This document shows, in pieces, positions 9,935 through 55,832 of a DNA stretch of 64,000 nucleotides (position 1 is the first letter of the stretch; the number at the start of each line of letters is the position of its first letter). The stretch is from Balneolales bacterium. GTDB lineage: Bacteria; Bacteroidota; Rhodothermia; Balneolales; HLUCCA01. Under the pieces are notes generated by a model. The model saw only the letters and a list, made by a program, of their open reading frames with translations, was not told the origin of the DNA and searched no databases. The position numbers and the translations under genes are program-made. The DNA lies in NCBI GenBank assembly GCA_041749075.1, contig JBGTBY010000031.1:148342-212341 (forward strand), read 5' to 3'.

Positions 9935-10105
9935 GGAGAACAAGTAAGAACAAGTACTCAGGTACTCAAGAAGAACAAGTGCTCAAGGAAGACAAGTACT
10001 CAAGGAAGACAAGTACCCACGGAAAGCAGAAGTATAACCCCCCTTGAGTACATGAGTACTTGTATCCCCTTGTTCTTCTTGAGTACCTGTTCTTACTTGT
10101 TCTCC
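9935..10105. repeat. Long imperfect hairpin built from short words (GAACAAG, GTACTCAAG)
   Basis: 9935-9952 pairs with 10088-10105 and 9960-9979 pairs with 10069-10088. An inner stem pairs caagtactcaagg with ccttgagtac..ttg. The 3' arm overlaps the last codons (MENK*) of the four-helix-bundle gene. Confidence 0.7.
9999..10060 (+). repeat. 62-bp perfect direct repeat, copy 1 (flanks the four-helix-bundle gene)
   Basis: ctcaaggaagacaagtacccacggaaagcagaagtataaccccccttgagtacatgagtact is identical to 10534-10595 (compared base by base). Confidence 0.9.
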
Positions 10106-10443
10106 ATACTTCGCACCAGCTTATAAATGAGTATGCAGATGAAATTCGCTTTCTCGATGAGTATATCTGATTGGTTAGATGGAATTAGTTGATGGGTTTT
10201 TGCTAACTCGGCCTGAATTTTGAATTCGCCAGCCGAGCCGCGTGCATACCGAAGAAATCGAATGAAATCTCCTTGAGTCATTCGATGATATCCTTCCGCA
10301 ATATTCGATGGCACCGATAAGCTCGATCGTACCATTTGATCCCTAAATGCACGATCACTCATCTTCAACAGTATCGGATAAGCCAATTCATTCAGCTCCC
10401 GTGCTTGTCGAAAGGCTTCGATGTCTTCTAGTTTGTGGAACAT
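10093..10443 (-). CDS. Four-helix-bundle protein (23S rRNA intervening-sequence protein / Avd-like family)
   Basis: 116 aa. Contains QMVRSSLSVPSNIAEGYHR...FLRYARGSAGEF, typical of the family. Confidence 0.85.
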   Translation of the reverse strand: MFHKLEDIEAFRQARELNELAYPILLKMSDRAFRDQMVRSSLSVPSNIAEGYHRMTQGDFIRFLRYARGSAGEFKIQAELAKTHQLIPSNQSDILIEKANFICILIYKLVRSMENK

Positions 10444-10533
10444 AATAATCAGGTACTCAGGTACTCATGGAAGAACAAGTAAGAACAAGTAAGAACAAGT
10501 ACTCAAGAAATCAAGTGCTCAAGGAATCAAGTG

Positions 10534-10595
10534 CTCAAGGAAGACAAGTACCCACGGAAAGCAGAAGTATAACCCCCCTTGAGTACATGAGTACT
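10534..10595 (+). repeat. 62-bp perfect direct repeat, copy 2
   Basis: Identical to 9999-10060. Preceded by 16-17-nt tandem words (tcaagtgctcaaggaa x2). The terminal cttgagtacttg pairs with caagtactcaag at about 10495. Confidence 0.9.
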
Positions 10596-10614
10596 CGTAT
10601 ATCTTGAGTACTTG

Positions 10615-12309: not shown

Positions 12310-12618
12310 ATGGCACAAACCTTCTTCGAAGAAATCAACGTCACCGGCAAAGACCTTCTCAAGCGCATCAAAAAATTGATCAAAGAAGGCAATGTGCGCC
12401 GACTCATCATCAAGAACAAAAAAGGTGACAAACTTCTCGAAATGCCCCTTACCATGGGTGCGGCGAGTCTGGGTGGGATGATGATTTTAACGCCGTTTCT
12501 GTCTGCGATTTCCTTCATCGCGTTGATGGTGACCGAAGCCACTATATTGGTCGAGCGCGATGCGAAAGCCGATCCGAATGAAGTGGAAGTGGATGATATT
12601 GAGATCGTGGAAGAGTAG
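12310..12618 (+). CDS. DUF4342 domain protein
   Basis: 102 aa. KDLLKRIKKLIKEGNVRRLIIKNKKGDKLLEMPL pattern plus a hydrophobic segment. AGGAG lies 9 nt upstream of the ATG. Confidence 0.7.
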   Translation: MAQTFFEEINVTGKDLLKRIKKLIKEGNVRRLIIKNKKGDKLLEMPLTMGAASLGGMMILTPFLSAISFIALMVTEATILVERDAKADPNEVEVDDIEIVEE

Positions 12619-12765
12619 TTAAAGCGTTAAAGCGTTAAAGCGTGAAAACGTGGAGGTGTAGAAGTGTTGGAGAATTCTTCACATTTTTACGCTTTCACGT
12701 TTTTACGTTTTAACACCTATACATTTTAACGCTTTCACGTTTTCACATTTCTACACAAAAAAGTC
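12619..12765. repeat. Gene-less word palindrome filling the whole intergenic spacer
   Basis: TTAAAGCG x3 plus TGAAAACG at 12619-12650. Centre GAATTC at 12672-12677. The right arm is built from the complementary words (CGCTTTCAC, CGTTTTAAC, CACGTTTTCAC). Confidence 0.6.
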
Positions 12766-13581: not shown

Positions 13582-13733
13582 ATGCTGTCCGCAAGCCTCA
13601 CTTAACATCGACGTTATGTGGCGATTCTGGATAATTCATTGTTCCAGATTACGTAGTGATTTCGGCTCGTAGGTTATTAATAAATAATCGGCTACGTCGA
13701 TTTGATAGGGCAATAAGTAACACTGTCCGCAAG
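13581..13733 (+). repeat. TGTCCGCAAG-element, locus A (two 10-mer copies at 13586 and 13724)
   Basis: GATGCTGTCCGCAAG...CCAGATTACGTAGTGATTTC...hairpin...CGATTTGATAGGGCAATAAGTAACACTGTCCGCAAG. Alignable end to end with locus B. Confidence 0.85.
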
Positions 13734-15812: not shown

Positions 15813-15841
15813 AACATAATACTAATGAGGTAGTATATCAA
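15813..15841 (-). promoter_or_regulatory. Candidate blaI promoter with overlapping dyad operator
   Basis: Minus strand reads TTGATA-N17-TATGTT, ending 6 nt before the blaI ATG. The 17-nt spacer contains the perfect dyad ATACTA-N6-TAGTAT (15819-15836), resembling BlaI/MecI TACTAC...GTAGTA operators. Confidence 0.5.
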
Positions 15842-16004
15842 GGGGGAAGTGGATGCTGTCCGCAAGTATCACTTAATAACACCGTTATGAGGCGAATATG
15901 GCGAATCTATAGTGCCAGATTACGTAACGATTTCAGGTCGTAGGTCGATTATTATCATGTGACTACATCGATTTGACAGGGCAATAAGTAACACTGTCCG
16001 CAAG
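15842..16004 (+). repeat. TGTCCGCAAG-element, locus B (copies at 15857 and 15995)
   Basis: GGGGGAAGTGGATGCTGTCCGCAAG...CCAGATTACGTAACGATTTC...hairpin...CGATTTGACAGGGCAATAAGTAACACTGTCCGCAAG. Confidence 0.85.
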
Positions 16005-18133: not shown

Positions 18134-18495
18134 TGGGGGAGATGCTGTCCGCAAGTCAATCTAAACTCATCTCAAAACTCTACTTTCTGGGATTGAGAGT
18201 GTACAACTAAGTAATTAGATATCAATAGGATATAAAAAACATTGAATTTGTTATTTATATGGATTGAGTGTCCGCAAGTGGTTTTAGAGTCTAGCCTATT
18301 TATAAAACGCTGAAAGGATTTATTAGGATCGGTTTCCAGGATAGTACGGCATCAGTCTCGTCCATTATTCTATTTTAATAACAAAAAATAGCACAGATTT
18401 CGGAAAGAAATTACGTAATAAATTTGTTTCGTAAGTATAATAATAACAATGTAATACATTAATTTGACAGGACAATAAGTATCGCTGTCCGCAAG
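18134..18495 (+). repeat. TGTCCGCAAG-element, locus C (three copies at 18146, 18269, 18486)
   Basis: GGGGGAGATGCTGTCCGCAAG...GGATTGAGTGTCCGCAAG...GCACAGATTTCGGAAAGAAATTACGTAATAAA...AATTTGACAGGACAATAAGTATCGCTGTCCGCAAG. The last copy touches the stop codon of the next gene. Confidence 0.85.
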
Positions 18496-22156: not shown

Positions 22157-22364
22157 TGTCCGCAAGTCCTCGATGTATTAATTCCGATGCAATAGAACCG
22201 ATTTTATAGGACGATGGTACGTGACAAATTGTGAAATGTGTGCAGGAGCCGGTTGACAAGCACAGATTCCACAGAGAAATTTCGTAATGATTCTTGTAAG
22301 TATCATTATGGTATTATTGAGGATAAGATTATTTGATAGGACAAAAAGTAACGCTGTCCGCAAG
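22157..22364 (+). repeat. TGTCCGCAAG-element, locus D (copies at 22157 and 22355)
   Basis: TGTCCGCAAG...GCACAGATTCCACAGAGAAATTTCGTAATGA...TTATTTGATAGGACAAAAAGTAACGCTGTCCGCAAG. Confidence 0.85.
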
Positions 22365-26216: not shown

Positions 26217-26322
26217 GTTGGCCTGCTCAAAATGAGCTATTGATCCCAAATTCATTCTTGTGAAGGGGCAGTATATTCACAATTCATCTGAAAAGCATAA
26301 GTTGCACACCATGATGCAACAT

Positions 26323-26427
26323 GCACAGATTCCACAGATTAATTACGTAATGAAATTGTGATGTAATTGTAATTTAAATAAATGTTTACGAGCATTTGAC
26401 AGTGGAGTAAGTAACACTGTCCGCAAG
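26323..26427 (+). repeat. TGTCCGCAAG-element, locus E (core only, one copy at 26418)
   Basis: GCACAGATTCCACAGATTAATTACGTAATGA...CATTTGACAGTGGAGTAAGTAACACTGTCCGCAAG. Ends 32 nt upstream of the yfcC-like ATG. Confidence 0.85.
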
Positions 26428-26459
26428 TCTACATAACAATCTATCAAATCGTCCTGTTC

Positions 26460-27959: not shown

Positions 27960-28166
27960 TGTCCGCAAGTGGTCAAACTGCCGATTCCGATTCCATATCA
28001 TCGTTTTTTAAGCTTCGTTTCTAGATTTGTTCTGTGAAAACGGTGCACGGGGTCTCGTTTTGTACAAATTCCACAGATAAATTACGTAACGATTTATCTT
28101 GTTAAGATTAAATATAATAATGAGTTGCGACTATTTGATAGCGCAATAAGTATGAGTGTCCGCAAG
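27960..28166 (+). repeat. TGTCCGCAAG-element, locus F (copies at 27960 and 28157)
   Basis: TGTCCGCAAGTGG...GTACAAATTCCACAGATAAATTACGTAACGA...CTATTTGATAGCGCAATAAGTATGAGTGTCCGCAAG. Confidence 0.85.
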
Positions 28167-29010: not shown

Positions 29011-29117
29011 CTGCACAGATTTCACAGTTTTTTTACGTAATGAATCCTCTGTATAAGAGTAGTAAATACAGAATCATGCGACGATTTGATAGGTCAATAA
29101 GTATGTGTGTCCGCAAG
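29011..29117 (+). repeat. TGTCCGCAAG-element, locus G (core only, one copy at 29108)
   Basis: CTGCACAGATTTCACAGTTTTTTTACGTAATGA...hairpin TCTGTAT/ATACAGA...CGATTTGATAGGTCAATAAGTATGTGTGTCCGCAAG. Confidence 0.85.
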
Positions 29118-29145
29118 TCCCCTTTCTCCTTACTTTTCCCATCTT

Positions 29146-30222
29146 ATGATCTCCCAAATCCTATCTCCGACCTTCGTCCTCGACGAAGCCCGCGCCCGCG
29201 CCAATATCCGCTTCATGGTTGAAAAGGCCGCTGCGCACAACCTCCGCCTTCGTCCCCATCTCAAAACGCCGCAATCGATCGATGTGGCCCGATGGTATCG
29301 GGATGTGGGCGTTACCTGCGTCACGGTGTCGTCAATCGACATGGCCGAGTACTTCGCCTCCGACGGCTGGACCGACATCACCCTCGCCATCCCTCTCAAT
29401 ATCCGCGAATGGCCACGGATCCAAGCCCTGGCCTCACGTATCCGGCTGAACCTTGTGGTGGATTCTGAAGTTGTGTTGAACCTGATTCCCGATTCCCGAT
29501 TCCCTATTTCTGTCTTCATCAAAATCGACGCGGGGTACCATCGAACCGGCATCCCCGCCAACAATCACGACCGAATCGCCGCCCTAGTAAACAAACTCAA
29601 CGCATCACCTGGCTTCGAGTTTACCGGCTTCATCACCCACGCCGGACACAGTTACGCCTGCCGATCCCATTCCGACATCCGTGCATTGCATGCGGAGCAA
29701 TTGCGCCAACTACTACCCCTTAAACAGTTCGGCGGCATTCTTTCCATCGGCGATACGCCGACTCTCACGGTTTCCGAACATTTTGACGGCATCGATGAGA
29801 TCCGACCCGGGAATTTCATCTTCTACGACATGAAGATGGTTCAGATTTCGGCATGTACTCCTGAGAAGATTGCGGTTTGCATGGTAGTGCCGGTCATCAG
29901 CACCCATCCCGATCGAAATGAAGTCATCATCAACGCCGGCTCCGTCCATTTCTCAAAAGATTCTTTTGTGGATGATGCCGGACAGCAACGCTTCGGGCAG
30001 GTGGTCCAACTGACCGACTCTGGTTGGGGTGAAGTGGTTGATGGCGCCCATGTCCGTAGTCTATGTCAAGAACATGGATTTGTGACGGGTCCGCCGGAGT
30101 ACATCAGATCGATCAAAATCGGCGATTTGGTCGGTGTGCTTCCTATCCATTCCTGCCTCACCGCAGATTGCATGGGCGAATTTTTGACCACGGCCGGTAA
30201 CAGGCTCGTAATGATGAAGTAA
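29146..30222 (+). CDS. D-TA family PLP enzyme (alanine-racemase N-terminal fold; D-threonine aldolase / D-serine dehydratase-like)
   Basis: RPHLKTPQS (PLP lysine context). The track start at 29107 lies inside repeat element G (ATGTGTGTCCGCAAG), so the start is moved to MISQILSPTFVLDE. Confidence 0.75.
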   Translation: MISQILSPTFVLDEARARANIRFMVEKAAAHNLRLRPHLKTPQSIDVARWYRDVGVTCVTVSSIDMAEYFASDGWTDITLAIPLNIREWPRIQALASRIRLNLVVDSEVVLNLIPDSRFPISVFIKIDAGYHRTGIPANNHDRIAALVNKLNASPGFEFTGFITHAGHSYACRSHSDIRALHAEQLRQLLPLKQFGGILSIGDTPTLTVSEHFDGIDEIRPGNFIFYDMKMVQISACTPEKIAVCMVVPVISTHPDRNEVIINAGSVHFSKDSFVDDAGQQRFGQVVQLTDSGWGEVVDGAHVRSLCQEHGFVTGPPEYIRSIKIGDLVGVLPIHSCLTADCMGEFLTTAGNRLVMMK

Positions 30223-30280
30223 CGGTTTAATAACACACGACGGGTAGCTTTTGGCATCTTAGATTCCTAAACAAAACCCA

Positions 30281-33064
30281 TTGTGTATGTCACGTCACTT
30301 AAATCATCTGATCATCTATATACTAGTCTTGAGTTTCGGCGCAACCACTGCCATTGCTCAACAAAACGGAGCCATCAAGGGAAGAATCGTCGATTCCGAC
30401 GGTCTTCCGATGCCAGGCGCCAGCATCCGTATCACCGAACTTCCAAATCTTGGCACATCCAGTGATGTGAATGGTCAATACAACCTGCTGTCTATCGCAT
30501 CGGGTTCGTACACACTCACCGTTTCGTATATCGGATACACCACGGTCAGCATGCCGGTCTCGGTTGTGGCCGGCGTGACGACCACTCAAGATTTCCAGCT
30601 CACTGAAGGGGCTACCATCGGTGAAGAAATACTCGTACTTGGGGATGGTTTGCGTGGCCAAGCCCGTGCGTTGAACCAACAGCGCAATAACATGAACATC
30701 ACGAATGTGGTGTCATCCGACCAAGCCGGTCGTTTTCCGGATGCCAACATCGGCGATGCCCTGAAACGGATTTCAGGTATCACAATTCAAAACGACCAAG
30801 GGGAAGCGCGCAACATCATTATCCGTGGGATGGCACCACAACTGAACTCGGTGACCATCAACGGCGAACGGATCCCATCCGCCGAAGGCGACAACCGGAA
30901 CATTCAATTGGATCTGATCCCTACCGATATGATCCAATCGATTGAAGTGAACAAAGCGGTAACGCCGGATATGGAAGCGGATGCGATCGGTGGTTCTGTC
31001 AATTTGGTGACACGTTCGTCACCCAATGAGTTCCGTCTATCCGGAACAGCCGCCAGCGGATTGAACCTACTCAGCAATCGTCCAATCTGGACCGGTGGTC
31101 TCGTCATCGGTGACCGTTTTCTCGATGGAAAACTTGGCGCCGTACTATCCGCTTCTTACAACTATCATGATTTTGGATCCGATAACGTGGAAGCTGAATG
31201 GTACAAAAGTGATACAGATCAGGTTACCCTTGACGAGTTCGACATTCGGAAATACTTGGTCCGTCGTGAGCGCAAAAGCACCTCGCTTTCGTTGGATTAT
31301 CGTCTTAACGACGAGAACATCCTCTATTTGAATGGCATGTACAACTGGCGCGACGACTGGGAGAACCGCTATCGTATGCGCGTTAGCCAGATTGGTCGCA
31401 CGTTCGATAACGGAACGGCTGTTTCGACTGGAAACAACGTATGGAATCTCCCCGCTCGTGTTCAATTCCAAACCAAAGGCGGTATCGACGATGATCGCAC
31501 GAAAATGCGCCGTCTCGAAGATCAGCGCAATCGAAACCTCTCGTTGGGCGGAAATCACCTGCTTGGTAGCTTGAGGGCTGATTGGTCTATCAGCTACGCC
31601 AAATCCTCCGAAGAGCGCCCGAATGAGCGCTACATTGCCTTCCGTCGCGGTGGACGTGCAACCACACTCAATTTGAGCGATACCCGTAAGCCAATCATTG
31701 GCCTGGTGAACCCAGACGATGCCCTTGCCTTTGGCCTGAATGATCTATCCCAATCGCAAGAGAAAACCTTTGATGAAGACAAAAATGCGCGTATCGACTT
31801 CATCTTTCCATATAGTGAGGATGGGTTGGTCAAGTTCGGTGGTCGTGCGCGACTCAAACACAAAGAAGTGGACAACAACTACACCGTCTACGAGCCGATC
31901 GATGGAACGATGATGCCGAATATGGGATCGGTGCCGCTCTCCGATCAGACCGATAGTGGCTTCCTCGCCGGCTCCCAATACGCTGCGGGTCGTTTTCCAA
32001 CGGCCGGATATTTGGGTGGTTTGGATTTGACCAATCCAGCCTTGTTTGATTCGGAAGACGCGCTTGAAGAGTATATCACAAGCAACTACGAAGCCGATGA
32101 ATCTGTCTATGCCGGTTACGTCATGGCCGACCACCGCGTGAACGATCAACTTTCCGTATTGGCCGGTGTTCGTTTGGAATACACATCGATGGATTACATC
32201 GGTAACCTATTCGATATCGACAATGAAACGGTGACCAAAGCACCGGGCTCCAACTCTTATCTGAACGTGCTCCCAGGCGTGCATGTGCGCTATGCACTTG
32301 AAGAGAACACGATCTTCCGTTTCGCATGGACGAACACCATCGCCCGTCCGAATTACTTCGATCTCGTACCTTATGCCGAATACGTGGCTGAAGATGCCGA
32401 GCTAACACGTGGAAATCCGAACCTGAAAGCCACAACGGCGATGAACTTCGACTTGATGGCCGAGCATTACTTCAGCAATGTCGGTATGGTATCCGCCGGA
32501 TTGTTCTACAAAGATGTGAACAATTTCATCTACTCCCAGACCCGTGCGAACTACACAGATCCGGTGTTTGGTCCAGGTTTGGAGTTCACCACTGCTGCGA
32601 ACGGTGGAACTGCGGATGTGTACGGATTGGAGATCGCATTCCAACGCCAAATCTGGAAAGGACTTGGACTCTACGCGAATTATACCCGCACCGAGTCGAC
32701 TACCACCGGCGTTGAAGGCCGTGAGAATGAGGATCTTGGCCTGCCAGGAACCGCAAAAAACATGCTGAATACCTCGCTTTCCTACGAGACACAGAAACTC
32801 AATCTTCGTGTTTCGATGAACTACGCAAGCGATTACGTGGATGAATTAGGTGGCGAGGCGTTCGAAGACCGTTACTACGACAAACAGACATTCATCGATG
32901 TCAATGGTTCCTACAAATTCACAAGTCGTATCCGCTTGTTCGCAGAGGTCAACAACCTCACCAACCAGCCGTTGCGCTACTACCAAGGGGTATCTAGCCG
33001 CACGATGCAAGTTGAATACTACAATGTCCGCTTCAACGTCGGTATCAAAGCCGATCTGTTCTAA
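30281..33064 (+). CDS. TonB-dependent receptor with CarboxypepD_reg-like N-domain
   Basis: GAIKGRIVDSDGLPMPGASIRI (CarboxypepD_reg-like). Plug motif ARNIIIRGMAPQLNSVTINGERIPS. C-terminal FNVGIKADLF. Confidence 0.9.
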   Translation: MCMSRHLNHLIIYILVLSFGATTAIAQQNGAIKGRIVDSDGLPMPGASIRITELPNLGTSSDVNGQYNLLSIASGSYTLTVSYIGYTTVSMPVSVVAGVTTTQDFQLTEGATIGEEILVLGDGLRGQARALNQQRNNMNITNVVSSDQAGRFPDANIGDALKRISGITIQNDQGEARNIIIRGMAPQLNSVTINGERIPSAEGDNRNIQLDLIPTDMIQSIEVNKAVTPDMEADAIGGSVNLVTRSSPNEFRLSGTAASGLNLLSNRPIWTGGLVIGDRFLDGKLGAVLSASYNYHDFGSDNVEAEWYKSDTDQVTLDEFDIRKYLVRRERKSTSLSLDYRLNDENILYLNGMYNWRDDWENRYRMRVSQIGRTFDNGTAVSTGNNVWNLPARVQFQTKGGIDDDRTKMRRLEDQRNRNLSLGGNHLLGSLRADWSISYAKSSEERPNERYIAFRRGGRATTLNLSDTRKPIIGLVNPDDALAFGLNDLSQSQEKTFDEDKNARIDFIFPYSEDGLVKFGGRARLKHKEVDNNYTVYEPIDGTMMPNMGSVPLSDQTDSGFLAGSQYAAGRFPTAGYLGGLDLTNPALFDSEDALEEYITSNYEADESVYAGYVMADHRVNDQLSVLAGVRLEYTSMDYIGNLFDIDNETVTKAPGSNSYLNVLPGVHVRYALEENTIFRFAWTNTIARPNYFDLVPYAEYVAEDAELTRGNPNLKATTAMNFDLMAEHYFSNVGMVSAGLFYKDVNNFIYSQTRANYTDPVFGPGLEFTTAANGGTADVYGLEIAFQRQIWKGLGLYANYTRTESTTTGVEGRENEDLGLPGTAKNMLNTSLSYETQKLNLRVSMNYASDYVDELGGEAFEDRYYDKQTFIDVNGSYKFTSRIRLFAEVNNLTNQPLRYYQGVSSRTMQVEYYNVRFNVGIKADLF

Positions 33065-33065
33065 A

Positions 33066-33665
33066 TTGACCACTAAGCAAGATTACCCGCTTCATCCGAC
33101 CGGATGGGGCGGGGTTTTATTTCTGTTGATGATCGGATGCCGTCCTGAACCCGCTCCGAATCCTCTAAGCTATCCTACGTACGCTTCGCCGGATTCATCC
33201 ACGGTAAACGTCGTCATCGAAATCCCAGCCGGTAGCAACGATAAGATCGAAATCAATAAAGTCTCTGGACTCTTCGAGATCGATCGCGTTCTCAACTTCC
33301 TTCCCTACCCGGTCAATTACGGGTTCATTCCATCCACATTGGGCGGCGATGGAGACGCCTTGGATGTGCTCGTGCTCTCGAAACGGCTTGAAACGGGAAC
33401 CCGGATTATAGCCATTCCAATTGCTACGTTAAGCCTGATCGACAAGGGTGAGATGGACGACAAAGTGCTTCTTATCCCCGTCGATTCCACCCTTCGCGTG
33501 GTGCCCTGCGAAACCTGGGAATGTCTCCAGTCCGATTATCCGGCCATTGTGGACATCTTGGAAACGTGGTTCACGACATACAAACCTCTGGGTGTGATGG
33601 TATCGGGCGGATGGATCGGCCCCGACTCCACTCGTCAGTTGATCCGGAACGCGAACGTCGACTGA
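33066..33665 (+). CDS. ppa: Inorganic diphosphatase (family I) with possible lipoprotein signal
   Basis: VNVVIEIPAGSNDKIE...YPVNYGFIPSTLGGDGDALDVLVL. The in-frame upstream part of ORF 32850..33665 lies inside the TBDR gene. A start at TTG 33066 would give MTTKQDYPLHPTGWGGVLFLLMIGC (lipobox-like). The only ATG gives MIGC. Start is uncertain. Confidence 0.75.
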   Translation: MTTKQDYPLHPTGWGGVLFLLMIGCRPEPAPNPLSYPTYASPDSSTVNVVIEIPAGSNDKIEINKVSGLFEIDRVLNFLPYPVNYGFIPSTLGGDGDALDVLVLSKRLETGTRIIAIPIATLSLIDKGEMDDKVLLIPVDSTLRVVPCETWECLQSDYPAIVDILETWFTTYKPLGVMVSGGWIGPDSTRQLIRNANVD

Positions 33666-34927
33666 ATCGGACGTCCTTCTGTATTCAGAACAGCATTTCC
33701 CTCCAGATTGGATGCGGAAAAGCGGACGCTCAACGAATCAGCCCCATTGTCTTGAATTGAAATCCATCCATATTGCCCTTGCTCTCTGCTGTATCCATGA
33801 CTGTATGGACCGCCTTTATAGGATCCGCGCCGGTCTAACGGAGCGGCATGAAATACAGGGAAGCCTCCCTCGGCATTCGTCCCGTCGTCCATCGCCACCA
33901 TGTGCGCGTCTCCGGAAATCATGAACAATTGGATGTCATTTTCTAGGATGAAGTTGGCGATGCGGGTACGTTCCTCCGGATATCCACCCCAGTCATCGTC
34001 TTCGCCACATTCATAATTCGGTCCGCCAGGTGCATTGATCCACGGAATTCCGGAGACCCAAGCCACGACCTTGCCCTGTTGTTTCGACTCGATCAATTGA
34101 TCAAAGAACCATTGCAGATGCAACTCGCTACCGAAATTGGTCCCAGCGCTTGTCCGGATGCATGAATTATCGGGATCGTAGGTTGGACGCACTTTTTGCG
34201 AGCGCAAATCAGTCAGCACAAATCGGACTCGACCCGTATCGAAGGTTTGTGAGATGGGATCATCCACACCGCCAAATGCGGTTGGATAATGCGGAATGTA
34301 GTTCCGATAGGTGGAGATGGCCACGCGTTTGCATGGAGCATTTCCGGCACTGTTGTTCGGACCAAAATCATGGTCGTCCCACATATAGGAAAATGGTGCG
34401 GCTCGAAACAAAGCGCTTTGTGTCGATGACCTTGCGACTTGCCCGATATGATCGGCGAACGCCGCTTCGCAATCGCTCTCGATATCGCCATAATGCAAAT
34501 CTCCCGTCTGCAGATAAAAGAGTGGTTCGCGTAGAGCCATTTGCTCAAACAGCGGACTCTCAGATCCGGTCGCCGCACAACTTCCGACGGCCACGTCAAA
34601 TGAAAAGGGTCCCTGGCTGAAGGTTGTCGCACGACCCGTAACACCATTCACCTTCCACAAATACGTTGTGGATGCATCAAGGCTTGTAATATCCACTCGG
34701 ATGGGAGTCAGCGAGTCACCCGATTCGATGCGACGATTAAAGACAATGTCAGACCCTTGTAGGATCTCGACATCAAATCGTCCTGCGGACTCAGGCATGA
34801 ACACCACGGAAAATGATGAATCGGTGATGGCGCCTGACCATGCGAAATCCACCTGACCTGGTTCGGTCGTTTCACATGCAACCAATAAGAAAAGAAAAGC
34901 CGGCAGGATGAGGGATGTTCGCATCAT
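33635..34927 (-). CDS. phoD: PhoD-like alkaline phosphatase / metallophosphoesterase lipoprotein
   Basis: MMRTSLILPAFLFLLVAC lipobox. Motifs GDLHYGD, WDDHDFGPNN and SGDAHM. Confidence 0.8.
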   Translation of the reverse strand: MMRTSLILPAFLFLLVACETTEPGQVDFAWSGAITDSSFSVVFMPESAGRFDVEILQGSDIVFNRRIESGDSLTPIRVDITSLDASTTYLWKVNGVTGRATTFSQGPFSFDVAVGSCAATGSESPLFEQMALREPLFYLQTGDLHYGDIESDCEAAFADHIGQVARSSTQSALFRAAPFSYMWDDHDFGPNNSAGNAPCKRVAISTYRNYIPHYPTAFGGVDDPISQTFDTGRVRFVLTDLRSQKVRPTYDPDNSCIRTSAGTNFGSELHLQWFFDQLIESKQQGKVVAWVSGIPWINAPGGPNYECGEDDDWGGYPEERTRIANFILENDIQLFMISGDAHMVAMDDGTNAEGGFPVFHAAPLDRRGSYKGGPYSHGYSREQGQYGWISIQDNGADSLSVRFSASNLEGNAVLNTEGRPIQSTFAFRIN

Positions 34928-35946
34928 TGCGCTCCGACAATATCTTCCGCTTTATAAAAGTGAAAGGTTTTGTCGTCGGACATCGCAACAAACAATCCGT
35001 TCGGAAATTGGTCATTCAATGCCACATTCGTGATGTCGTTGCCATCGCTTTCCAAAGCCAGCACATCTACCGAACGCACATAGTCATTATTCCCTTCACG
35101 TGTATACATGTTGAAACGGCGACCTTGCTGATCGGAAAGGAGTAGAAAACCGCTGCCATCCTGGCGTTTCCAAATGGACAATCCTTCGTGGTCGCGCTTG
35201 ACGTTCTCAGTTGCGAATAAAGAAATCTGAGTATCGCTGCTGTCAGGGTGCGCATGGTATTTGCGAACACCCACCGTTTCATCCGAGAAATAAACAAAAC
35301 CGAGTTCATTATCGACCGCGATGGCCTCGATCTCTTTCTTGCCAGAATACATGCCGAATGTTCTCACAAGAGTTCCTGACACCGTGCTGTCTCCAGCATC
35401 CGACAACAGATATTGCCATAAGTATCCTCCGGTGGTAGGACCCGATTTTCGTCCGACAATGGCAGAAATCTGTTTAGAGGTAGGATCCGTGTACAAAGCG
35501 ATTCCCATCGGATCGCGCTCGGTTTCTCCCTCAAATACCGGGATGCCGCCATTGTCAATCGGCCGCATGTCAGGGAGTGTAAATAGTCGGATGGAGTTCT
35601 CACGGCGTACGGTTACCACGGCGATGTCCACGGTATCCGCCCCGAGAACCAATCCATAGGCGATGTCGACATTGTTCGGACGATTAAGTCCGATCACACT
35701 ACGCTCGCGATCAATGGTTCCATCCAGCCGGAACACATACAATCCGCCTTGGTCCGTATCTCCGCCTTTGTCGGTGCCGATCACCAAACTTTGAGAAGGA
35801 TCGGTCGGATGGATCCAGATCGCCGGATCATCCGTGTCGTGAAGTACGGCTTCTGTGATGATGGTTGGTTGTACGCGTGGGACATCCGAGCAGGACATCA
35901 ATACGGCCACGGCCATAATGGACAGAGTAGGTTGGTGCAATTTCAT
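34924..35946 (-). CDS. Beta-propeller phytase (3-phytase) lipoprotein
   Basis: AVLMSC lipobox-like. DTDDPAIWIHPTDPSQSLVIGTDK is typical of BPP phytases. Confidence 0.8.
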   Translation of the reverse strand: MKLHQPTLSIMAVAVLMSCSDVPRVQPTIITEAVLHDTDDPAIWIHPTDPSQSLVIGTDKGGDTDQGGLYVFRLDGTIDRERSVIGLNRPNNVDIAYGLVLGADTVDIAVVTVRRENSIRLFTLPDMRPIDNGGIPVFEGETERDPMGIALYTDPTSKQISAIVGRKSGPTTGGYLWQYLLSDAGDSTVSGTLVRTFGMYSGKKEIEAIAVDNELGFVYFSDETVGVRKYHAHPDSSDTQISLFATENVKRDHEGLSIWKRQDGSGFLLLSDQQGRRFNMYTREGNNDYVRSVDVLALESDGNDITNVALNDQFPNGLFVAMSDDKTFHFYKAEDIVGAQ

Positions 35947-36010
35947 ATCGAATGATAAAGAAATCGTGTAAAGACAGTGTTAACGGAAGGATTCCTATCT
36001 TCATCCCAAC

Positions 36011-50078: not shown

Positions 50079-51191
50079 CTACAGCACCCCTTCCATGGTT
50101 TCTTTGATCAACTGATCCACCACGGCTTTTGGGTCGTTGGTGGAATAAAAGCAGGCGAGTTGACGATCGGATGAGGTCCCATGCCGCAAGATTCTATGAA
50201 TCACTGCGATTTCCTCGCGAGCACCGATATCATCCACCACATCATCCACGAAACTCAACAGTTCGAAGATGAGCGCGCGGGCGTCGACTTCTTTCTTCTT
50301 CCCGAGGTCGAGCAACTTCCCATCCAGTCCCCATCGAACCGCACGCCATTTGTTTTCTTGGATGAGTTCTTTGCGATAGACGCGCCAACTCATGTTATTG
50401 CGACGCAGTTTCAGGAGTTTGGCTACAAGCGCCACTTTCAAAGCGCAGATAGCGATGGCTTCGTCGAGGCGGGTCACTACGTCAGTTATGCGGAACTCTA
50501 GGGTTGGGTAGCGTGGCGACGGACGCAGGTCCCAGCGGATTTTGGTTGGATCATCGAAACAATTCGTTGAGATGGCCACATCCAGATATTCCATATAATC
50601 GCCCCAAGAACGCAGTGTGGGCGGAATTCCAGTACGAGGAAGCGCCTCGAACACGACAGAGCGGTACGATTTGAGTCCGGTGTCGTACCCATCCCAGAAA
50701 GGGGAGCTGGTGGACAAAGCAAGCAAGTGCGGACAAAAATAGCTTAACTGGTTCATCAAATCGATGCGCAGGTCGTTGTCCTCGATTCCCACATGCAGGT
50801 GCATGCCGCAAATGAGCAATTGCCGGGCCAGAACCTTGTTTTCGAGCACCAATCCTTCATAACGGGTGCGTTCGGTGATGGACTGATTTGTCCATTTCGA
50901 AAAGGGATGGGTGCCGCACGCGATGATGTTGAGTCCGTGCTCTTGCGCGATTTCGTGCACCGTTCTGCGGGCATACTTGAGTTGATCGTGCGCCTCTTGA
51001 ATGGACGTGCAGATCGGCGTGCCCACCTCCACCTGACATTGGAGCATTTCGGTGGTGATCGTATTTCCCATTTTGTCCTTTCCGTCTTTCAGAAAGAATT
51101 CCACCGCCGAACTGAGTTCGCCGGTTTTGGGATCAACGATCATGTACTCTTCTTCAACGCCGATGGTGAAGGATGTGGTTGGTTTTGCCAT
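50079..51191 (-). CDS. ybdK: Carboxylate-amine ligase, YbdK / GCS2 family
   Basis: FTIGVEEEYMIVD, LQCQVEVGT, GMHLHVGI. Start probably MAKPTTSF (the ORF extends to 51227). Confidence 0.85.
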   Translation of the reverse strand: MAKPTTSFTIGVEEEYMIVDPKTGELSSAVEFFLKDGKDKMGNTITTEMLQCQVEVGTPICTSIQEAHDQLKYARRTVHEIAQEHGLNIIACGTHPFSKWTNQSITERTRYEGLVLENKVLARQLLICGMHLHVGIEDNDLRIDLMNQLSYFCPHLLALSTSSPFWDGYDTGLKSYRSVVFEALPRTGIPPTLRSWGDYMEYLDVAISTNCFDDPTKIRWDLRPSPRYPTLEFRITDVVTRLDEAIAICALKVALVAKLLKLRRNNMSWRVYRKELIQENKWRAVRWGLDGKLLDLGKKKEVDARALIFELLSFVDDVVDDIGAREEIAVIHRILRHGTSSDRQLACFYSTNDPKAVVDQLIKETMEGVL

Positions 51192-51339
51192 AATGCGGGA
51201 AAGTACATCACGGGGATGTGATTTCAATCAGAAAATAGGTGGCGGGATGATTTTTTAAGAATAATCTTCTTCCGGTTGTAACAAATGCAGGGTCTCGTGA
51301 TCATAGGAGAGTGGTACTTAACACAAGAAGCATACACGT

Positions 51340-51726
51340 ATGAACAATCGTCATTCTACGATGTTGGTCCCGGAGCTACTGGTATTAAACAAGCACCTGC
51401 ATAAGATTCGAACTGTCAGCGAATGGGCTAGAAATTGCTGTATTTCTGAATCTAGTTTGAACAAGCGAATAAATACAATACTAGGCACTTCGCCCAAAAT
51501 TGTTCTTCGCGAGTTAAGGTTTGAAGTGATATGTTCGTTGATTAGAGAACAGGGTTTGCAAGCTACAAGTCAAGGGGTGGCGATTGATTCTGGCTTAGGA
51601 ATCCGTAGCAATGATCTTTACAAATTCTTGTCGATCTACTATGGAACGACGTTCACGCGCTTGAGATATGAGATAATAAGTGGAATGTATACCCCAAAGT
51701 TAAACAGGCTTGGAGATTTGGAATGA
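51340..51726 (+). CDS. Stand-alone AraC-type HTH regulator
   Basis: 128 aa. TVSEWARNCCISESSLNKRINTILGTSPKIVLRELRFEVICSLI resembles one AraC HTH unit. Confidence 0.5.
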   Translation: MNNRHSTMLVPELLVLNKHLHKIRTVSEWARNCCISESSLNKRINTILGTSPKIVLRELRFEVICSLIREQGLQATSQGVAIDSGLGIRSNDLYKFLSIYYGTTFTRLRYEIISGMYTPKLNRLGDLE

Positions 51727-52373
51727 TCCAGTCGTGGTTTGACCGAGTCGCCGGTTGGCAGCTGTATCTGATGGTCACATCTTTCTATCTCGGGTTGGTG
51801 TTCTTCTCGCAACAGTTTTTGTTCACAGATGAGCTCGTCCGAAACCAACTTTCGGAAATCTACCCAGCCTACATGATTCAAGATGTGTTAGAGTTGAGAA
51901 GCCGATTTTGGTGGGTCGGATATGTATTAGAACCGATCATTCTCTTCCTGAAGTTGCTTTTGTTTTTTTTGCCGGTCAGTGTTCTGGCTCTGTTATCTGA
52001 TTTGAATTATTCACCAAGGGATATTTTCAAAGCCGCTTTATTTGCCGAATTCGCATTCTTCATACAGCGTTTTTGGTATACGGCTCTTAGCTCAAAGCAC
52101 ACTGACAAATTATTTGATAGTACAATCATTGATCTTTACCCCTTAAGTCTGATTGGAATATTAGGATCCCGAAATGTGGTTCACTGGCTGGTCTATCCAC
52201 TGCAGACTATCAACATCTTTGAGATGATTTTCATCGTGATCACTAGTTGGTTTTTGTCAAGGTGCTGGAGCATGGGGTTTGCAACAACCTTGAATCTGGT
52301 GCTACCCGCCTATCTGATCGGTCTAGTTCTTTGGATGGGCTTTGTTGTATTTGTCACTATTCAGTTAATTTGA
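51723..52373 (+). CDS. Polytopic membrane protein (Yip1-like?), bacteriocin-locus associated
   Basis: 216 aa with about 5 TM segments. Overlaps the upstream stop. No firm family. Confidence 0.45.
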   Translation: MIQSWFDRVAGWQLYLMVTSFYLGLVFFSQQFLFTDELVRNQLSEIYPAYMIQDVLELRSRFWWVGYVLEPIILFLKLLLFFLPVSVLALLSDLNYSPRDIFKAALFAEFAFFIQRFWYTALSSKHTDKLFDSTIIDLYPLSLIGILGSRNVVHWLVYPLQTINIFEMIFIVITSWFLSRCWSMGFATTLNLVLPAYLIGLVLWMGFVVFVTIQLI

Positions 52374-52374
52374 C

Positions 52375-54585: not shown

Positions 54586-54599
54586 GTTGTATCGAAATG

Positions 54600-54644
54600 G
54601 GAGACAGATTTACTGATTTTGGAGACAATCAGGAATTGGGGACA
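54600..54644 (+). promoter_or_regulatory. Three direct repeats GGAGACA / GGAGACA / GGGGACA upstream of the peptide genes
   Basis: Copies start at 54600, 54621 and 54638 (21- and 17-nt spacing), 70-115 nt upstream of the ATG at 54715. Candidate regulator-binding array. Confidence 0.3.
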
Positions 54645-54714
54645 ACTATTTTTGGATTTATACTAGACTAATCGATTAGGTTCAATAATTAATTATCAAA
54701 ATAAGTACGTAAAT

Positions 54715-54918
54715 ATGAATACACTAAATTTCTCCCAAATGGAAGAACTCTCTGGTGGAGATTCTAATGTGAAAGCTCTGGGATTCACATGTGGTTATGC
54801 TACAGGCGTAGCAATTGTTGTAGCAGGTTTTCTAACCGGTGGTCTTGCATGGTTTGTTGGTGGAATGATCGCTGGTCCCACCTGTATTGCTGCAATTGCT
54901 TACACTGCAAGTAACTAA
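54715..54918 (+). CDS. Double-glycine-leader peptide 1 (class II bacteriocin-like precursor)
   Basis: MNTLNFSQMEELSGG | DSNVKALGFTCGYATGVAIVVAGFLTGGLAWFVGGMIAGPTCIAAIAYTASN. 15-aa GG leader, then a Gly-rich hydrophobic 52-aa core with GxxxG motifs and 2 Cys. Confidence 0.75.
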   Translation: MNTLNFSQMEELSGGDSNVKALGFTCGYATGVAIVVAGFLTGGLAWFVGGMIAGPTCIAAIAYTASN

Positions 54919-54932
54919 AAAGAGGAATTACT

Positions 54933-55130
54933 ATGAAAAGTTTAACAACTCAGAATATGATAAGTCTTGAGGCCGGAAGTTGGTGGGACTTAGTCGATTC
55001 AGCTTGTGCCGGATATGCATTAGTGGTAGGATTAACGTACGGCGCTGTAATTGCAAACCCAGTGGGTGGGGCAATTGGTGCAGGTTGTGCTATTCGAGGT
55101 GCTTATGTTGTGCTGGATAGTATAAAATAA
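54933..55130 (+). CDS. Double-glycine-type leader peptide 2 (class II bacteriocin-like precursor)
   Basis: MKSLTTQNMISLEAG | SWWDLVDSACAGYALVVGLTYGAVIANPVGGAIGAGCAIRGAYVVLDSIK. 15-aa leader ending AG, a core with GxxxG motifs and 2 Cys. AGAGGA lies 7 nt upstream of the ATG. Confidence 0.7.
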   Translation: MKSLTTQNMISLEAGSWWDLVDSACAGYALVVGLTYGAVIANPVGGAIGAGCAIRGAYVVLDSIK

Positions 55131-55154
55131 CTTCGAATTGACCGAATATGCGAT

Positions 55155-55832
55155 ATGTGGGGCGTATATTTAGTGAATACCCCAATTATCGTAACTGACT
55201 TGTTTCGACACTACATTGCTAACCTATTTTCGACTCAGGAACAAAGATACTACATCCTTCTTTTGTTCCTGATCGTCGATTTGCCACTTTTCGTTGTGGC
55301 TGTTTCGATGGGGTATGGCGTTGCCTCGGTACTGGGTCAACATTCCCTGCATCATGGGCTGATGTGGCTATCCCTATTCGCCTTTCTTTCGATTGGACAA
55401 GGAATCTTCCTGAAGCCCGCATCCATCAATCTTCAGCCCTATTTGCTGTTGCCCATTACTCGGACCAAGTTATTCATCTATGCCCTAATTCCGGTCATGT
55501 GCGATCGAAGCGGCGTGTTTGTGTTTCTATTACTTGGCAGCTTGACATGGTTTGATCCATCCATGAGTCCGTTCATGAAAATCCTGCTATTCACCGGACT
55601 CATTCCTTTCATCACCCTCTCAAGCATCTATACCTATTTCGTCCAACATCTTAAGGGGCTCAACAAAACCTATCTCATAATCCCGGTTCTGATTGTCATC
55701 CTCATCGGTTGGATGTGGATACAACCACTAACGATTCACCCACTATTGGTGATCGTCACCCTATCTTTTCCCCTTCCTATCGTGATCAAAGCCTTGTCGA
55801 CAACCATGTTTTATGTAAGCACGGATCGATGA
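55155..55832 (+). CDS. Polytopic membrane protein (putative immunity / ABC permease component)
   Basis: 225 aa with about 6 TM segments. Followed by a second membrane protein and an ABC ATPase with ATGA-type overlaps. Confidence 0.5.
   Translation: MWGVYLVNTPIIVTDLFRHYIANLFSTQEQRYYILLLFLIVDLPLFVVAVSMGYGVASVLGQHSLHHGLMWLSLFAFLSIGQGIFLKPASINLQPYLLLPITRTKLFIYALIPVMCDRSGVFVFLLLGSLTWFDPSMSPFMKILLFTGLIPFITLSSIYTYFVQHLKGLNKTYLIIPVLIVILIGWMWIQPLTIHPLLVIVTLSFPLPIVIKALSTTMFYVSTDR

What the first reader, a model, noticed from the sequence alone, without database searches (positions are those of the whole stretch)
26323..26427. Conserved modular core of the element: CACAGAT x2, ATTACGTAAT palindrome, variable hairpin, ATTTGAYAGG-CAATAAGTA box
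Loci D, E, F and G, and C in variant form, share GCACAGATT(C/T)CACAGA. This is two CACAGAT heptads 9 nt apart. It is followed within 2-6 nt by the perfect palindrome core TTACGTAA (ATTACGTAAT in E). Next comes a 40-60 nt AT-rich segment that differs in sequence but contains a stem in each copy I inspected: G has TCTGTAT/ATACAGA, A has TCGTAGG/CTACG, B has GTAGGTC/GACTAC. Then comes ATTTGA(C/T)AGG-N-CAATAAGTA-N4-TGTCCGCAAG. Loci A and B keep only CCAGATTACGTA plus the right box. This layout looks like a set of protein-binding sites or a structured RNA rather than a drifting duplicate. In E and G the element is essentially the entire spacer between divergent genes, so it must also carry or tolerate their promoters.
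Basis: seen in the sequence. Interest (0 to 1): 0.7.

Follow-up and report, generated by a model that had tools for sequence, protein, structure and literature searches.

The report
Modular intergenic repeat around TGTCCGCAAG core
The 105-base segment is one copy of an undescribed non-coding DNA repeat found in an uncultured group of Bacteroidota-like bacteria; copies sit at the borders of gene blocks that come and go between related genomes, so it probably marks sites of DNA rearrangement rather than encoding an RNA.

Summary
The motifs occur 5-8 times, and the terminal 10-mer TGTCCGCAAG occurs 13 times. All copies are on the + strand and all lie within 13.6-29.1 kb.

I collected 32 copies from six related genomes. 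They align over all 105 nt without a single gap, although about 35 central bases vary freely. The conserved modules are 73-91% identical between orthologous copies, while synonymous sites of the neighbouring gene are 38-59% identical.

The "variable hairpin" is not a stem. It is a pair of conserved inverted half-sites (yGTA...TACr) with no covariation. There is no consensus fold, no excess folding energy, no Rfam match and no conserved ORF.

The two CACAGAT heptads are the right arm of a 14-bp inverted repeat in full-length copies. Copies E (the finding) and G are 5'-truncated. E is a 161-bp insertion directly in front of the DcuC/YfcC start codon, compared with one relative.

Elements are often bracketed by two cores. 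Relatives carry "empty" single-core sites, and the gene blocks between cores differ between relatives.

Best reading (confidence about 0.5): a DNA-level, non-autonomous recombination or transposition element whose 105 bp is a fixed-spacing protein-binding arm next to the core. No enzyme was found. A portable regulatory module is the main rival.

The parts
26323..26427 (+). The finding itself: the 105-bp conserved module of copy E. It contains CACAGAT at 26324-26330 and 26333-26339, ATTACGTAAT at 26342-26351, the invariant half-sites GTA 26363-26365 and TAC 26387-26389, ATTTGACAG at 26394-26402, GAGTAAGTA at 26405-26413, and the core at 26418-26427.
26298..26458 (+). Full extent of copy E. It is a 161-bp segment that is absent from relative L018 and lies between the conserved upstream region and the DcuC/YfcC ATG at 26460. 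It is 5'-truncated, lacking the left inverted-repeat arm and the left core. It includes the right flank TCTACATAACAATCTATCAAAT, in which CTATCAAAT (26441-26449) is an inverted copy of ATTTGATAG.
13586..13733 (+). Copy A, short type, with cores at 13586-13595 and 13724-13733 (138 nt apart). It fills the spacer between the convergent genes for FA hydroxylase and a BlaR1-like protein.
15857..16004 (+). Copy B, short type, with cores at 15857-15866 and 15995-16004. It lies between the stop of the TonB_C gene and the start of the BlaI-like gene. It is 79% identical to A over 178 nt.
18146..18495 (+). Copy C, two tandem units bounded by cores at 18146, 18269 and 18486. The second unit carries a variant module at 18391-18495 (GCACAGATTTCGGAAAGA...). 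Relative L018 has a single core at this position.
22157..22364 (+). Copy D, long type, with cores at 22157 and 22355, inverted-repeat arms at 22230-22243 and 22260-22273, and the module at 22260-22364. L018 has one degenerate core (TGTCCGTGAG) here, and L009 has one core.
27960..28166 (+). Copy F, long type, with cores at 27960 and 28157, inverted-repeat arms at 28033-28046 and 28062-28075, and the module at 28062-28166. It lies between the convergent DcuC and TPR genes. L009 and L012 have a single core with matching flanks (an empty site).
29013..29117 (+). Copy G, a 5'-truncated module with its core at 29108-29117. It starts 3 nt from the called start of the TPR gene (minus strand), and the core ends 25 nt (29118-29142) before the ATG of the D-serine-dehydratase-like gene. 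It is absent in L012.

Best explanation
The 105 bp is the conserved right-hand module of one copy (E) of a clade-specific family of non-coding, mosaic intergenic DNA repeats. Every copy is built around an invariant, asymmetric 10-bp core, TGTCCGCAAG.

Shown:
- The family has several forms: short (138 bp core to core), long (about 197 bp, with a 14-bp inverted repeat), tandem and 5'-truncated.
- All window copies have the same orientation.
- The module keeps exactly the same length in six genomes, while its central 35 bp are free to vary.
- It shows no sign of RNA structure or of coding.
- Units bracketed by two cores in one genome correspond to a single core in another.
- The gene blocks lying between cores differ between close relatives.

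Inferred:
The element acts as double-stranded DNA. The module is a platform of protein-binding sites held at fixed distances from the core: two CACAGAT repeats, the TTAC|GTAA palindrome, GTA/TAC half-sites 24 bp apart, and ATTTGAYAGG-CAATAAGTA. In this view it is the accessory arm of a recombination or transposition site used by an enzyme encoded elsewhere in the genome. Exchange at or near the core inserts, deletes and duplicates both the small non-coding units and the neighbouring gene blocks. Copies that land in front of a gene (E, G) must then provide or tolerate that gene's expression signals.
For: Repeat family and core:
- Motif and core counts far exceed chance.
- The family is also present in a syntenic MAG at 82-89% nucleotide identity, and on five further contigs of that MAG between ordinary housekeeping genes.

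Fixed length:
- 32 copies form a gapless 105-column alignment.

Constraint:
- Module identity is 0.73-0.91, against 0.38-0.59 at 4-fold sites. The variable patch averages 0.48.

Not RNA and not coding:
-.

The core as a junction:
- Left-flank types (right box, GATGC type, other) and right-flank types (CACTTAA, CGATTCC, AxxTAxA) occur in all combinations around the same 10-mer.

Filled versus empty sites bounded by cores:
- F: the window has 197 bp between two cores, and L009 has one core with the same flanks.
- C: 340 bp in the window against one core in L018.
- D: 198 bp in the window against one degenerate core.

Gene-block turnover confined to the core-bearing interval:
- BlaR1/BlaI, TonB_C, GFO-Dabb-HK and DUF4249-TBDR blocks are present or absent between FA hydroxylase, RluB, DcuC and the D-Ser-dehydratase-like gene. 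The flanking 9.5 kb and 7 kb stay collinear.
- A lipoprotein gene sits in different slots in L018 and L019.
- The left edge of the 3.7-kb indel against L010 falls exactly at the end of a core.
Against: - No recombinase, transposase or HUH gene lies in the 64-kb window or beside any copy in the fetched loci.
- Two polymorphisms are not core-bounded. E and B are absent from L018 without leaving any core.
- In the MAG, the duplicated unit around a SIMPL gene extends 65 bp and 22 bp beyond the cores.
- The arms flanking the core are no more complementary than chimeric or shuffled controls, so there is no clear pair of inverted recombinase-binding sites.
- Empty sites could arise by slippage or homologous recombination between direct repeats, without any dedicated enzyme.
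- Orthologous copies have stayed in place across species, so mobility, if any, is slow.
- Nothing similar was found in plasmids or phages. Of the viral contigs, one scan gave no hit and the other gave two hits that look like chance matches inside coding sequence.
Confidence: 0.5

Rival explanations
1. Portable regulatory module. The element is a block of operator and promoter sites for one or more transcription factors (a dimer on TTACGTAA and the GTA/TAC half-sites, another protein on the CACAGAT repeats). It has been copied in front of genes and is kept by host-level selection. The core and rearrangements are by-products of repeat-mediated recombination.
For: - Orthologous copies keep their modules at distances where synonymous sites are saturated, which suggests a host-level function.
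- E and G lie 32 and 25 nt upstream of the ATGs of + strand genes, and E replaces everything directly upstream of the DcuC ATG.
- Five of seven copies also have the start of a minus-strand gene on their left.
- ATTTGA is the best, though weak, match to the Bacteroidetes -7 motif: 13 of 32 copies match at least 5 of 6 positions.
Against: - Five of seven right boxes point into the 3' end of a convergent gene, and copies A and F lie between two gene ends where no promoter is needed.
- The neighbouring genes are functionally unrelated.
- There is no canonical sigma-70 or -33/-7 arrangement at conserved columns. TAnnTTTG is absent upstream of all 47 window genes, so the promoter type of this lineage is unknown.
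- L018 keeps the same genes without copies B and E.
- This reading does not explain the invariant core or the core-bounded units.
Confidence: 0.22
2. REPIN/REP-type element moved as single-stranded DNA by a RAYT-like (HUH Y1) transposase. The inverted repeat TGTGAAATCTGTGC/GCACAGATTCCACA would be the hairpin that the enzyme recognises.
For: - Long copies contain two inverted 14-bp arms separated by 16 nt. REPINs are defined as two inverted REPs with a spacer (PMC3337134 abstract).
- The copies are intergenic, non-autonomous and vertically persistent, as described for REPINs (bioRxiv 10.1101/2022.05.22.493013 abstract).
- E and B appear at sites with no pre-existing core.
Against: - The right arm is nearly invariant while the left arm varies without compensation.
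- E, G, A and B lack the hairpin yet keep the module.
- The most conserved part is an asymmetric 10-mer, not a palindrome.
- There is no folding signal with RNA energy parameters for the 105-nt module, and no excess duplex energy with DNA parameters for the arms around the core.
- No Y1 transposase gene is present in any fetched locus.
Confidence: 0.1
3. Structured RNA (an sRNA, a cis-regulatory leader or a guide RNA of a mobile element) encoded by the 105 nt.
For: - A fixed length with a variable centre can be a property of RNAs.
- GAYAG (A2 columns 76-80) can pair with CTGTC (columns 95-99) in 94% of cells, with a C/U-G alternation at one pair.
Against: - RNAalifold gives 0 pairs.
- Mean z is 0.0 to -0.4 for the element and for the variable part, on both strands.
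- The GAYAG/CTGTC pairing involves only near-invariant columns, so it says nothing either way.
- There is no Rfam match even at E<=1.
Confidence: 0.04
4. Passive product of local segmental duplications and homologous recombination only, with no specific machinery or function.
For: - A and B belong to a 2271-bp spaced duplication (79% identity over 178 nt).
- The MAG shows a 300-bp duplication with ragged ends around a SIMPL gene.
- Direct repeats of 100-200 bp would by themselves promote deletions of the kind seen between relatives.
Against: - This does not explain why the modules stay 0.73-0.91 identical with no indel in 32 copies while synonymous sites saturate.
- It does not explain why an exact 10-mer is kept at 74 sites in 17 loci.
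- It does not explain copies on unrelated contigs between unrelated genes.
Confidence: 0.08

Closest known systems
Chromosomal integron cassette arrays and their attC repeats (for example the Vibrio cholerae repeats); comparison from my own knowledge of the field
   Same: - Repeats of 100-200 bp, all in one orientation, lie between functionally unrelated gene units in one chromosomal region.
- They are packed tightly against gene ends.
- Gene content between the repeats varies between relatives.
- The repeat has conserved ends and a variable centre.
   Different: - The core is a direct repeat of TGTCCGCAAG, not the inverse core RYYYAAC paired with GTTRRRY.
- There is no hairpin signal.
- Blocks hold up to three or four genes on either strand, including backbone genes (RluB, DcuC) that are neighbours even in a relative with no cores (L020).
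- No intI, attI or Pc lies within 64 kb.
dif (pdif) modules of Acinetobacter plasmids (PMC6449649, PMC12907356 abstracts)
   Same: Gene modules without their own recombinase are flanked by short recombination sites used by an enzyme encoded elsewhere. Modules are shuffled between replicons or relatives.
   Different: - pdif sites are 28-bp XerC-spacer-XerD sites, and modules are flanked by sites in opposite orientation (my own knowledge).
- Here the conserved part is the asymmetric centre, the arms are weak, the sites are direct, and a 95-bp accessory module is attached.
REP/BIME and REPIN-RAYT systems (PMC3116915, PMC3337134)
   Same: Short, non-autonomous, lineage-specific intergenic repeats that are mosaic combinations of modules, occur as singlets, doublets and clusters, and persist vertically for long periods.
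   Different: - The palindrome is not the conserved unit.
- There is no covariation or folding signal.
- Orientation is uniform within the cluster.
- No RAYT was seen.
attP-type sites of tyrosine integrases, with arm-type and accessory-protein sites (lambda paradigm; my own knowledge)
   Same: - A short identical core is shared by all partner sites.
- Next to it lies a roughly 100-bp arm with direct repeats, a palindrome and AT-rich spacers whose distances matter more than their sequence.
- Integration duplicates the core on both sides of the inserted DNA.
   Different: - No integrase gene accompanies the site.
- The 'integrated' unit can be just 138-197 bp of non-coding DNA.
- There are many copies per genome.

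Membership tests
Integron attC / cassette array | The site is an imperfect palindrome with an inverse core RYYYAAC (R'') and a core GTTRRRY (R') that folds as a single-stranded hairpin. | tested here: not met
   The boundaries are direct copies of TGTCCGCAAG. There is no consensus fold and no excess stability. The arms are not complementary beyond controls.
Integron attC / cassette array | An intI tyrosine integrase with attI and Pc lies next to the array. | tested here: not met
   Pfam scans of the window's ORFs and the annotations of the relatives' loci show no integrase. An integrase elsewhere in the genome cannot be excluded.
Integron attC / cassette array | Cassettes are mostly single promoterless ORFs in one orientation, each followed by its own attC. 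| tested here: not met
   Blocks contain 1-5 genes on both strands. RluB and DcuC are ancestral neighbours in L020, which has no cores.
REPIN / REP-RAYT | [quoted passage not shown] | tested here: inconclusive
   A 14-bp inverted repeat with a 16-nt spacer is present in the long copies D and F and in copies L002, L006 and L010. It is absent from A, B, E and G. There are no compensatory changes.
REPIN / REP-RAYT | A single-copy RAYT (Y1 transposase) gene in the same genome, flanked by the repeats. | not testable with these tools
   Only about 200 kb of the relevant genomes could be fetched, and none of the annotated genes is a Y1 transposase.
MITE derived from a DDE insertion sequence | Terminal inverted repeats, plus a target-site duplication of fixed length whose sequence differs from copy to copy. 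| tested here: not met
   The flanking 10-mer is identical at every copy. Long elements have no terminal inverted repeats. Only the short element of L010 shows about 15 bp (TATCACTTAAccGCAC / GTGCAtTAAGTGATA). No parent IS was found in plasmids, phages or viral contigs.
Xer/dif modules | A 28-bp site with 11-bp XerC and XerD arms around a 6-bp spacer. | tested here: not met
   The conserved element is a 10-bp asymmetric centre preceded by (T)AAGTRAYRC. The right arm is inconsistent. The dif consensus used for comparison comes from my own knowledge.
Any Rfam RNA family | A covariance-model match. | tested here: not met
   There were 0 hits at the gathering threshold in the 64 kb. One chance hit (E=0.97) lies elsewhere, in 13.4-29.3 kb.
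Bacteroidetes primary-sigma promoter (-33 TTTG / -7 TAnnTTTG; my own knowledge) | Both motifs present, 17-23 bp apart, at conserved columns. | tested here: not met
   The best column is xxxxATTTG, with at least 5 of 6 positions matched in 13 of 32 copies. A TTG 17 nt upstream occurs in about a third of copies, judged by eye. The motif is absent upstream of all 47 window genes.

The most novel reading that the evidence does not exclude
The 13 directly repeated TGTCCGCAAG sites partition 16 kb into a chromosomal cassette array of a new type. In this reading, a still unidentified recombinase of this uncultured Bacteroidota-like clade uses the core plus its 95-bp fixed-geometry arm to insert, excise and shuffle both gene blocks and gene-less mini-elements. 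It would be an analogue of integrons or dif modules with unrelated sites.
Probability: 0.17. Interest if true: 0.85.

Novelty: new variant of a known kind. Interest (0 to 1): 0.55.

Why it matters
If the core and its arm are a recombination site, this locus shows how ordinary chromosomal genes are gained, lost and reordered in a little-studied, uncultured lineage without a nearby integrase. The genes involved include TonB-dependent receptors, BlaR1/BlaI-type sensors and kinases. The site would also be unlike attC, dif or known att sites.

Even on the modest reading, two things are useful. First, the element is a clean natural example of DNA on which selection preserves distances exactly (105 bp, no indel in 32 copies) while 35 bp of sequence are free. 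Second, it gives a concrete set of motifs for pull-down or DAP-seq experiments. It also warns annotators that intergenic DNA in this clade is largely repeat-derived.

Tried and rejected
- Structured RNA or a riboswitch-like leader: rejected.
- A small conserved ORF as the cause of the indel-free alignment: rejected. At most 13 of 32 copies are open in any frame.
- A hairpin or palindrome around the core (tyrosine-recombinase-type arms, or a REP-like stem): no excess complementarity over chimeric or shuffled arms.
- Inversion of the variable patch between the GTA/TAC half-sites as the cause of its turnover: reverse-complement alignments are no better than forward ones.
- Sigma-70 promoters and intrinsic terminators: counts are at or below shuffled expectation.
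- The Bacteroidetes -7 motif: weak.
- A sigma-54 site, an IHF site, DnaA boxes, parS, dif, the CTnDOT target, Tn7 ends and MOB nick sites were compared by eye from memory. None fits, and none was tested formally.
- Literature string search for the motifs: only unrelated primer hits.
- Plasmid and phage BLAST: no match.
- Viral contig scans: one gave no hit; the other gave two hits that look like chance matches inside coding sequence.
- First metagenome scan with the full right box: nothing.
- Second metagenome scan with the arm plus core: five contigs, of which L013, L014 and L017 look genuine and L015/L016 may be chance.
- Exact look-up of the window's DcuC: not on record, so the source genome itself is not in the collection.

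Full report
**1. The observation**

Every motif recurs far more often than in dinucleotide-preserving shuffles:

| Motif | Mismatches allowed | Found | Expected |
|---|---|---|---|
| CACAGATTYCACAGA | up to 2 | 5 | 0.41 |
| CAATAAGTA-N4-TGTCCGCAAG | up to 3 | 8 | 0.01 |
| ATTACGTAAT | up to 1 | 8 | 1.3 |
| ATTTGAYAG...TAAGTA | up to 2 | 8 | 0.02 |

The 10-mer TGTCCGCAAG occurs exactly 13 times, always on the + strand, and only between 13586 and 29117.

**2. Context**

The window is ordinary chromosome from a Bacteroidota-like organism. Its genes include SecA, ComM, TonB-dependent receptors with CarboxypepD_reg domains, a DUF4249 protein, a BlaR1/BlaI-like pair, RluB, a YfcC/DcuC-family transporter, ProB and ProA. 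There is no integrase, transposase or phage gene in the 64 kb.

A pattern scan of one genome per species found the right box in only one genome, a MAG labelled uncultured Chitinophagales (CAYPOI01). That MAG is syntenic with the window at 82-89% nucleotide identity. It also carries copies on five further contigs, between unrelated housekeeping genes: CCA-adding enzyme/GHMP kinase, SIMPL/threonine aldolase, a CheB-CheR kinase, and SmpB/M50 peptidase.

Orthologues of the DcuC gene led to five further relatives of graded distance:

| Locus | DcuC amino-acid identity to the window |
|---|---|
| L009 | 91% |
| L018 | 86% |
| L019 | 78% |
| L010 | 76% |
| L012 | 75% |

L020 (59%) serves as an outgroup without any core.

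**3. Anatomy**

I extracted 32 copies of the right-hand module from six genomes. They line up over 105 columns without a single gap, both by simple registration on the core and with MAFFT.

The consensus is:

GCACAGATTCCACAGA-nAAA-TTACGTAA-TGATTTC-n5-GTA-n21-TAC-g-n2-gATTTGAYAGG-n-CAATAAGTA-n4-TGTCCGCAAG

Inside the 'variable' part, TA (A2 columns 42-43) is nearly invariant or invariant and T (column 65) is invariant.

Full-length copies are larger than the finding.
- In the long type, a second core lies about 197 nt to the left. The two CACAGAT heptads are then the right arm of an inverted repeat, TGTGAAATCTGTGC-N16-GCACAGATTCCACA (D 22230-22243/22260-22273; F 28033-28046/28062-28075).
- In the short type (A, B), the second core lies 138 nt to the left, and a different left part replaces the heptads.
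- C is two tandem units.
- E and G are 5'-truncated.
- To the right of the core, about 22-30 further bases are also family-specific (T.AAyMTAwAm.CC..TATCAA). In E these include CTATCAAAT, an inverted copy of ATTTGATAG.

**4. RNA, protein-coding or DNA?**

The evidence is against RNA and against coding:
- RNAalifold predicts no pair on either strand.
- Minimum free energies of the variable part and of the whole module equal those of shuffles, with mean z from 0.0 to -0.4.
Shuffling the 3' letters among sequences gives 72.8 +/- 2.1%. The complementarity therefore comes from conserved columns (yGTA and TACr), not from compensatory change.
- The possible GAYAG/CTGTC pairing involves only near-invariant columns.
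- No Rfam family matches, even at E<=1.
- No reading frame is open in more than 13 of 32 copies.

The word GTA/TAC recurs at fixed places: in TTAC|GTAA, then at column centres 42, 66 and 90, which are 24 bp apart. Together with the exact length conservation of an otherwise free AT-rich spacer, this is what a set of protein-binding sites on double-stranded DNA would look like. That is an inference, not a result.

**5. Constraint**

| Comparison | W-L009 | W-L018 | W-L010 |
|---|---|---|---|
| Identity at 4-fold degenerate sites of DcuC | 0.58 | 0.59 | 0.38 |

Orthologous copies are 0.73-0.91 identical in the module columns. In the variable patch they are 0.26-0.86 identical, with a mean of 0.48. 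The modules are thus kept well above the neutral level, and the patch is mostly at or below it.

At site G, the window and the MAG share identical left flanks and modules, but their patches are only 26% identical. The MAG's patch matches that of L009 (86%), and L018 has a third version. The patch has therefore been replaced rather than mutated, most simply by conversion from other family members. It is not an inversion.

**6. Dynamics**

Units bracketed by two cores in one genome correspond to a single core in another:
- F: 197 bp in the window, the MAG, L010 and L019, against one core with the same flanks in L009 and L012.
- C: 340 bp against one core in L018.
- D: 198 bp against one degenerate core in L018 and one core in L009.
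- In L018, the F unit is 598 bp and carries a 136-aa lipoprotein-like gene. Its homologue in L019 (47% identity) sits in a different slot.

Around the same 10-mer, three kinds of left flank and three or four kinds of right flank occur in all combinations.

Gene content varies between relatives only within the core-bearing interval. The outgroup L020 has FA hydroxylase, RluB and DcuC as immediate neighbours. The window has BlaR1-BlaI, TonB_C, GFO-Dabb-kinase-161aa and DUF4249-TBDR-247aa blocks inserted between them. Nearly every block is delimited by cores lying 0-50 nt from the gene ends. Relatives carry different subsets of these blocks.

Not everything is core-bounded:
- E (26298-26458, 161 bp, ending 1 nt before the DcuC ATG) and B are missing from L018 without leaving a core.
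- In the MAG, a roughly 300-bp unit was duplicated on both sides of a SIMPL gene. It reaches 65 bp left and 22 bp right of the cores.
- In L010, L012 and L019, the site upstream of DcuC is inverted.
- More distant, higher-GC contigs carry only (T)TAAGTGATAC-TGTCCGCAAG, often 22-35 nt upstream of a start codon.

**7. Interpretation**

The descriptive conclusion is secure: this is a clade-specific, non-coding, mosaic intergenic repeat family centred on an invariant asymmetric core, and the finding is the conserved module of a truncated copy.

The mechanism is inferred. I rank first a recombination or transposition element acting as DNA and served by an enzyme encoded elsewhere, in which the 105 bp is the accessory arm. 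This is the only reading that accounts together for:
- the invariant core at mosaic junctions;
- core duplication around units;
- empty sites;
- uniform orientation;
- tandem units;
- block turnover confined to this interval;
- exact spacing.

Against it stand the missing enzyme, the ragged events, the lack of symmetric arms, and the fact that slippage or homologous recombination between direct repeats can make empty sites.

A portable regulatory module is the main rival. It fits the host-level conservation and the position of E and G. It does not fit copies lying between two gene ends, the five right boxes that face the 3' ends of convergent genes, or the core itself.

**8. Comparison with known systems**

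The closest analogues are integron attC arrays, Acinetobacter dif modules, REP/BIME-REPIN systems and attP arms. Defining features of each were tested and are not met or are inconclusive (see the membership table). The element can be said to resemble them in behaviour, but it is not a member of any. No description of these motifs was found in the literature search.

**9. Verdict**

The element is undescribed and moderately interesting. It would become highly interesting if a dedicated recombinase and active cassette exchange were demonstrated.

Noticed in passing
window 9937-10065 and 10436-10600: A second, unrelated repeat family. Tandem arrays of AGAACAAGTA and CAAGTACTCAAGGAAGA-like units, plus 73-nt copies that are 97% identical and 535 nt apart, flank a small ORF between the AraC/PocR-like gene and ComM.
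   Followed up: no
window 12618-12756: GTTAAAGC x4 is followed by an 8-nt periodic array (TTTTTACG / TTTCACGT, about 9 units) directly upstream of the FA-hydroxylase gene at 12766. It could be a phased T-tract or a regulator-binding array.
   Followed up: no
window 29065-29100 (variable patch of copy G) versus L004 and L009: The 35-nt patch of G is only 26% identical to the MAG's orthologous copy, although the flanks and modules are about 90-100% identical. The MAG and L009 share one patch (86%), and L018 has a third. This indicates replacement by conversion, not mutation.
   Followed up: partly
window 30183-35996: A block containing a TonB-dependent receptor and downstream genes (pyrophosphatase, PhoD and phytase in relatives) is present in the window, partly present in L012, L018 and L020, and absent in the MAG, L009, L010 and L019. 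No TGTCCGCAAG lies at its borders.
   Followed up: no
window about 51000-57000: A low-GC stretch (43-45% against about 51%) carries a C39-peptidase ABC exporter, an HTH protein and several ORFs without a Pfam match. It may be an acquired bacteriocin-type island.
   Followed up: no
whole window, 120 nt upstream of 47 genes: The canonical Bacteroidetes -7 promoter motif TAnnTTTG does not occur upstream of any of the 47 genes. There are 18 matches on both strands in the whole 64 kb. The promoter type of this lineage is unclear, and the 'Chitinophagales' label of the related MAG may deserve checking.
   Followed up: no
L002 4570-4862 and 5598-5890 (MAG contig CAYPOI010000065): Two long elements with their flanks (about 300 bp, 94% identical) lie as direct repeats on either side of a SIMPL-family gene. 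The left edge of the duplication includes the first codons of that gene.
   Followed up: partly
L012 5250-5381; L010 9968-9977; L019 9968-9977: In the three more distant relatives, the site upstream of DcuC is in the opposite orientation (CTTGCGGACA-GTATCACTTA, 23-25 nt before the ATG). In L012, DcuC is therefore bracketed by inverted core-plus-arm units.
   Followed up: partly
L018 11501-12108 and L019 12668-13357: A lipoprotein-like gene (136/141 aa, 47% identity) lies inside core-bounded units at different slots in two relatives: before the TPR gene in L018 and after it in L019. L009 has an unrelated 138-aa membrane-protein gene in the second slot.
   Followed up: partly
window 15813-15845: A palindrome, ATACTA-N6-TAGTAT, lies just upstream of the BlaI-like gene. 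It is conserved in L018, L009 and L012 and is a likely operator of that repressor. It is distinct from the TTACGTAA of the element.
   Followed up: no
window 35947-36010: The spacer between the 340-aa gene and proB contains GTTAACACTGTC. It shares 10 nt (TAACACTGTC) with the right box/core junction AAGTAACACTGTCCGCAAG. It may be a decayed site or a coincidence.
   Followed up: no
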